Source: Escherichia coli
GTDB lineage: Bacteria; Pseudomonadota; Gammaproteobacteria; Enterobacterales; Enterobacteriaceae
Assembly (NCBI RefSeq): GCF_003334385.1
Contig: NZ_QOWN01000006.1
Length of the DNA stretch: 64,000 bases
Strand: one strand, 5' to 3'
The position numbers and the translations under genes were made by a program. Shown piece by piece: positions 21,829 through 22,290 of the stretch (position 1 is its first letter; each line of letters opens with the position of its first letter). The notes under the pieces were generated by a model. It saw only the letters and a list, made by a program, of their open reading frames with translations, was not told the DNA's origin and made no database searches.

Positions 21829-22290
21829 GACAAGCTCCTGCTTAAGGAATAGCTATTCGACGCCAGAAATAATGCAGGCGTAACGACAAAATGCAAACGA
21901 AAGGTGCGGCATAGAGTGCCAGAAAGGCAGGCGTTAAAAGGCCTGATGCTGAAATGACGTCGGTGACGATCCATACTGCGGGCTACTGCCCTATACTCCA
22001 TGGTTGTTAAACGGGAGTTAAACATATCAGAGACGCCTCTGATTTGGCAAAGATTTACCTTCCTTTGCAAACGAATGTGACAAGGATATTTTACCTTTCG
22101 AAATTTCTGCTAATCGAAAGTTAAATTACGGATCTTCATCACATAAAATAATTTTTTCGATATCTAAAATAAATCGCGAAACGCAGGGGTTTTTGGTTGT
22201 AGCCCTTATCTGAATCGATTCGATTGTGGACGACGATTCAAAAATACATCTGGCACGTTGAGGTGTTAACGATAATAAAGGAGGTAGCAA

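What the first reader, a model, noticed from the sequence alone, without database searches (positions are those of the whole stretch)
21829..22290. 460-bp yoaE-manX intergenic region with two TTTCG / CGAAA palindromic elements
TTTCGAAATTTCTGCTAATCGAAAG (22096-22120) and TTTTTTCGATATCTAAAATAAATCGCGAAA (22152-22181) look like Mlc/NagC-type operators upstream of manX. The 84-aa track ORF 21816-22070 has no Shine-Dalgarno and is probably not coding. The region is long enough to hold further elements I cannot assign.
Basis: inference. Interest (0 to 1): 0.3.

Follow-up and report, generated by a model that had tools for sequence, protein, structure and literature searches.

The report
Known yoaE–manX divergent control region

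Summary
The sequences quoted are present at the stated coordinates, in a 462-bp gap carried by 5424 of 5426 complete E. coli genomes. The region holds two back-to-back promoters, and most of its parts are already published.

**manX side**
- Transcription starts at 22176, from the published 115-nt 5' UTR.
- A CRP site lies at -40.5.
- A proximal Mlc-type operator occupies 22150-22172.
- The published NagC "man distal" operator GATATTTTACCTTTCGAAATTTC occupies 22085-22107.
- A conserved Cra box lies at +41.5.
- The defining operator feature is TT-N9-AA, not the TTTCG/CGAAA pairing, which survives in 2 of 77 related species.

**yoaE side**
- The last 52 codons of the "non-coding" 84-aa ORF are yoaL (21816-21974, minus strand). 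It is annotated in RefSeq, detected experimentally, and needed for yoaE expression.
- Its frame is open in 78 of 78 loci examined.
- Its predicted promoter overlaps a PhoP box footprinted in Shigella and adjoins a CpxR site footprinted in Salmonella.

The finding is ordinary and already explained. The only open question is how yoaL, with its invariant MDRHRR start, couples to yoaE.

The parts
21816..21974 (-). yoaL, a 52-codon leader ORF ([13 protein letters not shown]...SWNS). Its stop TAA (21818-21816) lies 10 nt inside yoaE and forms UAAUG with yoaE Met5.
   Evidence: RefSeq CDS WP_001327808.1. Translation. Tagged and detected (PMC6001520). A stop codon in yoaL strongly lowers yoaE-lacZ. 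The frame is open from the conserved ATG to yoaE ATG+10 in 78 of 78 loci, at 46-55 aa. Codon 5 is CGA in 78 of 78.
21826..21839 (-). yoaE (mgpA) start codon ATG (21828-21826) and Shine-Dalgarno AGGAG (21839-21835). Both lie inside the yoaL coding sequence.
   Evidence: Sequence, ORF list and near-invariant columns in the 77-species alignment.
21980..21999 (-). Conserved SD-like (A)GGAG (21999-21996), followed by a possible 4-bp hairpin GGGC-N3/4-GCCC (21991-21980), 5 nt before the yoaL ATG.
   Evidence: Invariant G's and C's with a variable loop. The pairing is 99% kept, but there is only one compensatory change and 54 of 500 shuffles do as well. The structure is therefore unproven.
22008..22024 (-). 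PhoP box TGTTTA-ACTCC-CGTTTA, overlapping the predicted -10 and +1 of the yoaL-yoaE promoter.
   Evidence: Pattern match. The identical sequence aTGTTTAactccCGTTTAa was listed and shown to bind PhoP-P by EMSA, and a DNase I footprint in the yoaE promoter was reported to fit the PhoP box motif, in Shigella; yoaE was 7.14-fold up in a phoPQ deletion (PMC5775216). The hexamers are conserved and the 5-nt spacer varies across species.
22021..22050 (-). Predicted sigma-70 promoter of yoaL-yoaE: -35 TTGCCA (22050-22045), 18-bp spacer, extended -10 TG-a-TATGTT (22029-22021). The predicted start is about 22014-22012.
   Evidence: Consensus scan. The -35, TG and -10 columns are 90-100% conserved while the base between TG and the -10 varies. 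No transcription-start data were available here.
22054..22078 (-). CpxR site region: a CpxR-like box GCAAAGGAAGGTAAA (22068-22054, minus strand) and the E. coli equivalent (GCAAACGAATGT, 22067-22078) of the 12 nt protected by CpxR-P in Salmonella.
   Evidence: PMC6952189: EMSA, a DNase I footprint on GCAAAGAGATGT, and 5-fold lower yoaE induction in a cpxR deletion. Conserved block and inverted repeat. The GTAAA-N5-GTAAA consensus is recalled from memory.
22085..22107 (+). Distal NagC-type operator GATATTTTACCTTTCGAAATTTC, centred at 22096 (-80). It has G and C at +/-11.
   Evidence: Exact match to 'man distal' in the curated NagC site list (PMC3098098). It ranks 2nd in the 64-kb window with a matrix built from the 9 other NagC sites. 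TT-N9-AA is kept in 65 of 77 species.
22125..22146 (+). CRP (CAP) site ATTACGGATCTTCATCACATAA, centred at 22135.5 (-40.5). This is a class II arrangement replacing a -35 element.
   Evidence: The right half TCACA is perfect and the left half has 3 mismatches, so the match is not significant by sequence alone. The site is nearly invariant in 77 species. Crp activation of manXYZ is cited in PMC8085971. The -40.5 position matches my recollection of Plumbridge 1998.
22150..22172 (+). Proximal Mlc/NagC operator AATTTTTTCGATATCTAAAATAA, centred at 22161 (-15). It has A at +/-11 (Mlc type) and overlaps the -10.
   Evidence: TT at -6/-5, AA at +5/+6 and A at +/-11 in 77 of 77 species. The neighbouring register ranks 8th in the window with the NagC matrix. 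It fits the Mlc rule of TT-9bp-AA with A/T-rich +/-7-11.
22165..22176 (+). manX promoter -10 TAAAAT (22165-22170) and transcription start G at 22176.
   Evidence: The 115-nt 5' UTR stated in PMC3089445, counted back from the GTG at 22291. The -10 is invariant in the alignment.
22209..22224 (+). Cra (FruR) box tcTGAATCGATTCGat, centred at +41.5 within the manX 5' UTR.
   Evidence: 12 of 16 matches to gcTGAAtCGaTTCAgc (PMC5888115). CTGAATCGATTC occurs once in the window and is nearly invariant in 77 species while its flanks diverge. Cra binds a PmanX fragment and represses manXYZ in Salmonella (PMC10100716). The exact box drawn in that paper's figure could not be read.
22278..22293 (+). manX ribosome-binding site AAGGAGG (22278-22284) and GTG start (22291-22293).
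   Evidence: Sequence and invariant columns. The last 30 nt of the UTR plus 102 nt of coding sequence suffice for SgrS control.

Best explanation
The 462-bp gap is a compact divergent control region with two back-to-back sigma-70 promoters about 163 bp apart.

**Rightward: PmanX**
- Transcription starts at 22176. The promoter has a good -10 (TAAAAT) and no -35, so it depends on cAMP-CRP bound at -40.5.
- It is repressed by the ROK-family repressors Mlc and NagC. They bind 23-bp TT-N9-AA operators at -15 (over the -10; A/T at +/-11, Mlc type) and at -80 (G/C at +/-11, NagC type).
- The operators are about 65 bp apart and flank the CRP site. This spacing would allow cooperative binding or looping, which is an inference.
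- A Cra box at +41.5 adds repression when glycolytic flux is low.
- The 115-nt leader is the target of the SgrS/DicF/Hfq translational control already described.

**Leftward: the predicted yoaL-yoaE promoter**
- An extended -10 promoter, starting at about 22013, transcribes yoaL and yoaE (mgpA).
- Published evidence from relatives places CpxR-P (activator) just upstream of the -35. Its PhoP-P box coincides with the -10/+1 of the promoter predicted here, and PhoP behaves as a repressor in the Shigella expression data. Occlusion of the promoter by PhoP is my inference.
- This fits the reported induction of yoaE by high Mg2+ at neutral or alkaline pH, and in egg white.

**yoaL to yoaE coupling**
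- yoaL is translated from ATG 21974 through the yoaE Shine-Dalgarno and start codon, stopping 10 nt inside yoaE.
- Its translation is needed for yoaE translation. The most likely mechanisms are direct ribosome hand-over (termination-reinitiation) or protection of the leader from Rho. This step is inferred.
For: - **Identity and ubiquity:**
- **manX start:**
- **Distal operator:** exact match to the published 'man distal' site and matrix rank 2 of about 64,000 positions.
- **Operator rule:**. **Conservation of the determinants:**
- **Cra:** motif, binding and repression in Salmonella, conservation.
- **yoaL:** annotation, detection, effect on yoaE-lacZ, open frame in 78 of 78 loci with a variable middle.
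- **PhoP box:** identical published sequence with EMSA, a reported footprint fitting the motif, and derepression in a phoPQ deletion.
- **CpxR:** footprint and in vivo effect.
- **Mg2+ and pH response of mgpA-lacZ:**
- **Synteny:** gene order is kept and gap length is 437-485 bp in all fully evaluable loci of 80 Enterobacteriaceae.
Against: - The original DNase I footprints of NagC, Mlc and CAP on manX (Plumbridge & Kolb 1991; Plumbridge 1998) could not be read. The proximal operator's exact borders and its Mlc preference therefore rest on the consensus rule, conservation and my recollection.
- The CRP match is not significant by sequence alone.
- No transcription-start data for yoaL were available. 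The Shigella footprint coordinates (-107 to -83) cannot be reconciled with my numbering without their figure.
- One paper describes PhoP as up-regulating yoaE, whereas the primary table shows derepression in the mutant.
- The PhoP and CpxR experiments were done in Shigella and Salmonella, not in this strain.
- The coupling mechanism is untested. No conserved structure hides the yoaE Shine-Dalgarno, and the leader folds no better than shuffles.
Confidence: 0.85

Rival explanations
1. One reading: the operators are the two TTTCG...CGAAA inverted repeats exactly as delimited (22096-22120 and 22152-22181).
For: The pentamers are enriched, with 6 against 2.07 expected and 11 of 1000 shuffles reaching 6. 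Element 2 overlaps the proximal operator by 21 bp. Element 1 overlaps the distal operator by 12 bp.
Against: The published distal site is 22085-22107. The TTTCGA..TCGAAA repeat is kept in 2 of 77 species, and 22108-22120 is poorly conserved. The CGAAA at 22177-22181 is at the transcription start and varies between species. The family rule is TT-N9-AA around a central base, not TTTCG/CGAAA.
Confidence: 0.1
2. The minus-strand ORF is a chance open frame with no role, and yoaE is controlled only at its own Shine-Dalgarno and promoter.
For: There is no canonical Shine-Dalgarno within 5-10 nt of the yoaL ATG. The middle of the peptide is not conserved. There is no NCBIfam match.
Against: The frame is open from the same ATG to the same stop position in 78 of 78 loci, despite length changes in multiples of three. 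The protein was detected. A stop codon at its start strongly lowers yoaE-lacZ. It is annotated in RefSeq.
Confidence: 0.03
3. The long yoaE leader is a metabolite- or metal-sensing RNA, like the yybP-ykoY Mn2+ riboswitch found upstream of other TerC-family genes, and the ORF is incidental.
For: YoaE has a TerC domain and its expression responds to Mg2+. The 5' 60 nt of the leader is very conserved, including at synonymous sites of yoaL codons 3-5.
Against: No Rfam family matches the gap even at E <= 10. The leader's folding energy is no better than shuffles, z = +0.76. No consistent pairing partner for the Shine-Dalgarno exists across species. The two small hairpins show no significant covariation. 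The middle of the leader varies in length and sequence.
Confidence: 0.05
4. YoaL acts in trans as a small protein, for example as a partner of YoaE, rather than through the act of its translation.
For: The N-terminus MDRHRR is conserved, and the C-terminus ...SRSLSWNS is conserved in many species. The protein accumulates enough to be detected.
Against: The C-terminal conservation is explained by its overlap with the yoaE Shine-Dalgarno and start codon. The central 35-40 residues differ freely in sequence and length between genera. Conservation at the N-terminus extends to synonymous positions: CGA in 78 of 78, CGT in 71 of 78, CAC in 72 of 78. This points to a nucleotide- or codon-level constraint.
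Confidence: 0.07

Closest known systems
manXYZ promoter of E. coli K-12 (CAP at -40.5, two NagC/Mlc operators; Plumbridge & Kolb 1991, Plumbridge 1998)
   Same: It is the same locus. The window sequence is identical to those E. coli genomes shown and at least 99% identical across 5424 genomes. It has a 115-nt UTR and contains the listed 'man distal' operator verbatim.
   Different: Nothing differs.
nagE-nagBACD divergent region (two NagC operators flanking a CAP site, repression by DNA looping)
   Same: There are two 23-bp TT-N9-AA operators on either side of a CRP site. One has A/T and one has C/G at +/-11.
   Different: Here the promoter-proximal site is Mlc type, and repression by NagC is reported as weak. 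Looping at manX is inferred, not shown here. The divergent partner gene (yoaL-yoaE) belongs to a different regulon (PhoP/CpxR).
mgtL-mgtA and other leader-ORF controls of cation transporters
   Same: A short ORF in the leader of a Mg2+-related transporter gene. Its translation determines expression of the downstream gene.
   Different: In mgtA, impaired leader translation raises expression through alternative RNA structures and Rho. Here, loss of yoaL translation lowers yoaE expression. The ORF physically overlaps the yoaE start, and no conserved alternative structure was found.
PhoP-repressed promoters with a PhoP box over the -10/+1
   Same: The box matches (T/G)GTTTA-N5-(T/G)GTTTA at 11 of 12 positions and lies over the predicted -10 and start. 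The gene is derepressed in a phoPQ deletion.
   Different: The promoter position is predicted, not mapped. The experiments were done in Shigella flexneri.

Membership tests
NagC/Mlc (ROK repressor) operator | A 23-bp quasi-palindrome with TT at -6,-5 and AA at +5,+6 around a central base | tested here: met
Distal, centre 22096: TT at 22090-91 and AA at 22101-02. Proximal, centre 22161: TT at 22155-56 and AA at 22166-67. The rule is from PMC4288165. The proximal determinants are kept in 77 of 77 species and the distal in 65 of 77.
NagC/Mlc (ROK repressor) operator | A/T at +/-11 and A/T-rich +/-7-11 for Mlc; C/G at +/-11 for high-affinity NagC | tested here: met
   The proximal operator has A and A at +/-11 with all-A/T flanks, so it is Mlc type. 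The distal has G and C at +/-11, so it is NagC type.
NagC/Mlc (ROK repressor) operator | Experimentally bound by the repressor (footprint or curated site list) | tested here: met
   The distal site is an exact match to 'man distal' in the NagC list compiled from El Qaidi & Plumbridge 2008 and J. Plumbridge (PMC3098098).
Class II CRP-dependent promoter | A TGTGA-N6-TCACA site centred near -41.5, replacing the -35 | tested here: inconclusive
   The centre at 22135.5 is -40.5 relative to the start at 22176. The TCACA half is perfect and the other half has 3 mismatches, which is no better than chance in the window (190 hits against 227 expected). The site is nearly invariant in 77 species. Crp activation is cited.
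Cra (FruR) operator | Match to gcTGAAtCGaTTCAgc, plus binding by Cra | tested here: met
   12 of 16 positions match, and the 12-mer core matches at 11 of 12. It is the only copy in the window and is conserved in 77 species. Cra-His6 shifts a 331-bp PmanX fragment, and a cra deletion raises manXYZ in Salmonella. That this box is the bound one has not been shown directly.
PhoP box | (T/G)GTTTA-N5-(T/G)GTTTA direct repeat bound by PhoP-P | tested here: met
   TGTTTA-ACTCC-CGTTTA at 22024-22008 has one mismatch. The identical string was published with EMSA and a DNase I footprint reported to fit the PhoP box motif. The match alone is not significant: 2 hits in the window against 1.14 expected.
CpxR box | GTAAA-N5-GTAAA bound by CpxR-P | tested here: inconclusive
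   GCAAA-GGAAG-GTAAA (9 of 10) lies on the minus strand at 22068-22054. The Salmonella footprint (GCAAAGAGATGT) corresponds to 22067-22078 and overlaps it by 2 nt. That paper's second predicted site was conserved but not protected. The consensus itself is recalled from memory.
Regulatory leader ORF (uORF) coupled to the downstream gene | It is translated, overlaps or precedes the downstream start, and blocking its translation changes downstream expression | tested here: met
   The overlap of 13 nt is read from the sequence. Translation and the stop-codon effect come from the literature. ORF conservation in 78 of 78 loci was tested here.
yybP-ykoY (Mn2+) or any Rfam riboswitch | A covariance-model match in the leader | tested here: not met
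   No match lies in 21829-22290, even at E <= 10.

The most novel reading that the evidence does not exclude
The start of yoaL may itself be a cis-acting sensor. It has an invariant ATG-GAY-CGT-CAC-CGA-CGY (MDRHRR), with the rare CGA codon in 78 of 78 loci. It is preceded by a conserved AGGAG held 21 nt away across a small GGGC/GCCC hairpin. Early elongation or initiation on yoaL could depend on cytoplasmic Mg2+ or ribosome state, for example through peptidyl-tRNA drop-off at low Mg2+. That would set how many ribosomes reach the overlapping yoaE start and add a translational Mg2+ response on top of PhoP repression. The published work only suggests that YoaL 'might' mediate the Mg2+ response. 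The conserved motif, the split Shine-Dalgarno arrangement and the absence of a Shine-Dalgarno-hiding structure are observations made here.
Probability: 0.2. Interest if true: 0.5.

Novelty: already known. Interest (0 to 1): 0.1.

Why it matters
For the scan, this finding can be closed. The region is the textbook manX control region joined to the published yoaL-yoaE (mgpA) control region, and nothing in it needs a new kind of element.

Three practical lessons follow:
- ROK-repressor operators should be called by TT-N9-AA, not by eye-catching CG-centred repeats.
- A missing Shine-Dalgarno is weak evidence against a short leader ORF.
- Comparing the gap across about 80 Enterobacteriaceae recovers every published site as a separate conserved block. 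It also isolates the one part still without a mechanism, the invariant start of yoaL. That is a reasonable entry point for anyone studying how mgpA responds to Mg2+.

Tried and rejected
- **Rfam scan** of 21000-23500 at E <= 10 found nothing in the gap.
- **Whole-leader fold** was no more stable than shuffles, z = +0.76.
- **Search for a conserved anti-Shine-Dalgarno** hiding the yoaE ribosome-binding site. An E. coli CCUGC/GCAGG pairing looked promising, but the predicted partner differs from species to species and the Shine-Dalgarno is often unpaired. Rejected.
- **Covariation test of two small hairpins** near the yoaL start found one compensatory change and no significance.
- **PhoP repression of yoaL-yoaE.** I first took this for a new idea. 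A literature search showed that the exact box is published and footprinted.
- **The conserved TTTGCAAAG...CTTTGCCAA repeat.** I considered PurR, CytR, TyrR and ArcA by recalled consensus and rejected them. CpxR is the published binder.
- **CRP consensus scan** was uninformative by itself.
- **NCBIfam** has no model matching YoaL.
- **Primary footprint papers.** Attempts to read Plumbridge 2001 (PMC29661) and El Qaidi & Plumbridge 2008 (PMC2446801) failed. A full-text search for the proximal operator string found nothing. Plumbridge & Kolb 1991 and Plumbridge 1998 were not attempted, being presumed not held.
- **The best NagC-matrix hit in the window** (8347-8369) lies inside the 3' end of fadD and was set aside as a probable chance match.

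Full report
**What and where**

The window is E. coli chromosome. A 701-bp query spanning the finding matches 5424 of 5426 complete E. coli genomes at 99% identity or more, once per genome. The flanking genes are yoaE on the minus strand (CNNM/TerC-family cation transport protein, renamed MgpA in Salmonella) and manX on the plus strand. The gap between the yoaE ATG (21828) and the manX GTG (22291) is 462 bp.

**Is the TTTCG/CGAAA pattern more than chance?**

Slightly. There are six such pentamers in the gap against 2.07 +/- 1.32 in dinucleotide-preserving shuffles, and 11 of 1000 shuffles reach six. The pattern is not what evolution preserves, however.

To test this I fetched the manX locus from 80 Enterobacteriaceae species. 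In every locus that could be fully evaluated, yoaE lies divergently upstream, with a gap of 437-485 bp. I aligned 77 distinct gaps.

**The manX side**

- **Transcription start.** The manX 5' UTR is 115 nt (PMC3089445), which puts the start at 22176. It sits just downstream of an invariant TAAAAT (22165-22170).
- **CRP site.** There is no usable -35. Instead ATTACGGATCTTCATCACATAA (22125-22146) is nearly invariant and centred at -40.5. As a match to the CRP consensus it is no better than chance. Its position, its conservation and the cited Crp dependence of the operon make it the class II CRP site, as I recall from Plumbridge 1998.
- **Operator rule.** NagC and Mlc operators are 23-bp quasi-palindromes. 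Their only invariant positions are TT at -6,-5 and AA at +5,+6. A/T at +/-11 marks Mlc sites, and C/G marks strong NagC sites (PMC4288165; PMC1874608).
- **Sites that fit the rule.** Two well-conserved sites in the gap fit.
  - *Distal operator.* 22085-22107 reads GATATTTTACCTTTCGAAATTTC. It is letter for letter the 'man distal' NagC site of a curated list (PMC3098098). With a matrix built from the other nine sites of that list, it ranks second in the whole 64-kb window. It has G and C at +/-11.
  - *Proximal operator.* 22150-22172 reads AATTTTTTCGATATCTAAAATAA and overlaps the -10. Its TT, its AA and an A at both +/-11 positions are kept in 77 of 77 species. The adjacent register ranks eighth in the window.
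There are indeed two operators, and element 2 essentially covers the proximal one. Element 1 is shifted about 12 bp to the right of the real distal operator.
- **Cra box.** A further block, tcTGAATCGATTCGat (22209-22224, +41.5), is almost invariant while its flanks diverge. It matches the Cra motif gcTGAAtCGaTTCAgc at 12 of 16 positions (PMC5888115). Cra binds a PmanX fragment and represses manXYZ in Salmonella (PMC10100716).

**The yoaE side**

- **yoaL.** RefSeq annotates yoaL at 21816-21974 on the minus strand.
  - YoaL was detected by epitope tagging under a longer, 69-aa annotation (PMC6001520).
  - Ribosome profiling moved its start downstream, and a stop codon at its start strongly lowered yoaE-lacZ (10.1101/511675).
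- **Conservation of the frame.** In all 78 loci analysed, an ORF runs from an ATG-GAY-CGT-CAC-CGA-CGY start (MDRHRR) to a stop exactly 10 nt inside yoaE.
  - Its length varies from 46 to 55 codons, and the middle of the peptide is not conserved.
  - Selection therefore keeps the frame, the start and the stop position, which is the signature of a cis-acting leader ORF.
- **Other in-frame ATGs.** The ATG of the 69-aa version (22025) lies inside the predicted -10. The ATG at 22001 is not conserved.
- **Predicted promoter.** Upstream lies TTGCCA-18-TG-a-TATGTT (22050-22021). The hexamers and the TG are 90-100% conserved, and the base between TG and the -10 is free.
- **PhoP box.** Over the promoter's -10 and start lies TGTTTA-ACTCC-CGTTTA (22024-22008).
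  - I first took this for a new lead. It is published: the identical string is listed for yoaE in Shigella flexneri and bound by PhoP-P in EMSA, and a DNase I footprint in the yoaE promoter was reported to fit the motif.
  - yoaE was 7.14-fold up in a phoPQ deletion (PMC5775216).
- **CpxR site.** Just upstream of the -35, CpxR-P protects GCAAAGAGATGT in Salmonella. That corresponds to 22067-22078 here. CpxR is needed for full induction in egg white (PMC6952189).
- **Fit with expression data.** These inputs fit the reported behaviour of mgpA-lacZ, which is high at 10 mM Mg2+ at pH 7.4 and 8.5 (PMC12421838).

**What remains open**

How yoaL translation promotes yoaE translation is not known.
- No Rfam family matches the gap.
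- The leader folds no better than shuffles.
- No consistent partner hides the yoaE Shine-Dalgarno across species.
- Two small hairpins near the yoaL start are compatible with the sequences but lack significant covariation.

Direct ribosome hand-over at the overlapping stop and start (UAAUG), or protection from Rho, are the simplest readings. A sensing role for the invariant MDRHRR/CGA start is possible but untested.

**Limits**

- No transcription-start data for yoaL were available.
- The PhoP, CpxR and Cra experiments were done in Shigella or Salmonella.

**Verdict**

This is an already-known regulatory region.

Noticed in passing
window 22056-22064 (locus L002, strain GZ04-0086): One complete E. 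coli genome carries a 768-bp IS1 with a 9-bp target duplication (TACCTTCCT). It is inserted just upstream of the yoaL -35, inside the CpxR-box region. It separates the yoaL-yoaE promoter from its upstream site and from the manX control region.
   Followed up: partly
window 21954-21999, minus strand: The start of yoaL is conserved at the nucleotide level beyond what the peptide requires: codon 5 is CGA in 78 of 78 loci, codon 3 is CGT in 71 of 78, and codon 4 is CAC in 72 of 78. The only good Shine-Dalgarno-like AGGAG sits 21 nt upstream of the ATG, across a possible GGGC-N3/4-GCCC hairpin.
   Followed up: partly
window 21814-21828, minus strand: The yoaL stop overlaps a second in-frame yoaE methionine (UUA-AUG, read as UAAUG). 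The Leu codon TTA that creates the stop is kept in essentially all 77 species, so reinitiation at Met5 of YoaE is conceivable.
   Followed up: no
window 8347-8369: The best match in the whole window to the NagC matrix (CGTAATTCTCGTCGCAAAATTTT, score 17.98) lies inside the 3' end of fadD, near the fadD-rnd junction. It is probably a chance match.
   Followed up: partly
literature on yoaL and yoaE: Two inconsistencies. The Weaver preprint says the true yoaL start is 13 codons below the first annotation, but the RefSeq and conserved ATG is 17 codons below it, and codon 13 below is GTA. The mSphere paper says PhoP up-regulates yoaE, while the Shigella data show 7-fold derepression in a phoPQ deletion.
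   Followed up: partly
window 22087-22103 and 22155-22171: The distal and proximal operators are inverted copies of one another (17 nt, 82% complementary), as expected for two quasi-palindromes of the same family (pair I1).
   Followed up: yes
window 25525-25541: A second one-mismatch PhoP-box-like string (TGTTTAGTGTATTTTTA) lies about 540 bp downstream of the end of manZ. Two such hits in the window against 1.14 expected is not significant.
   Followed up: no
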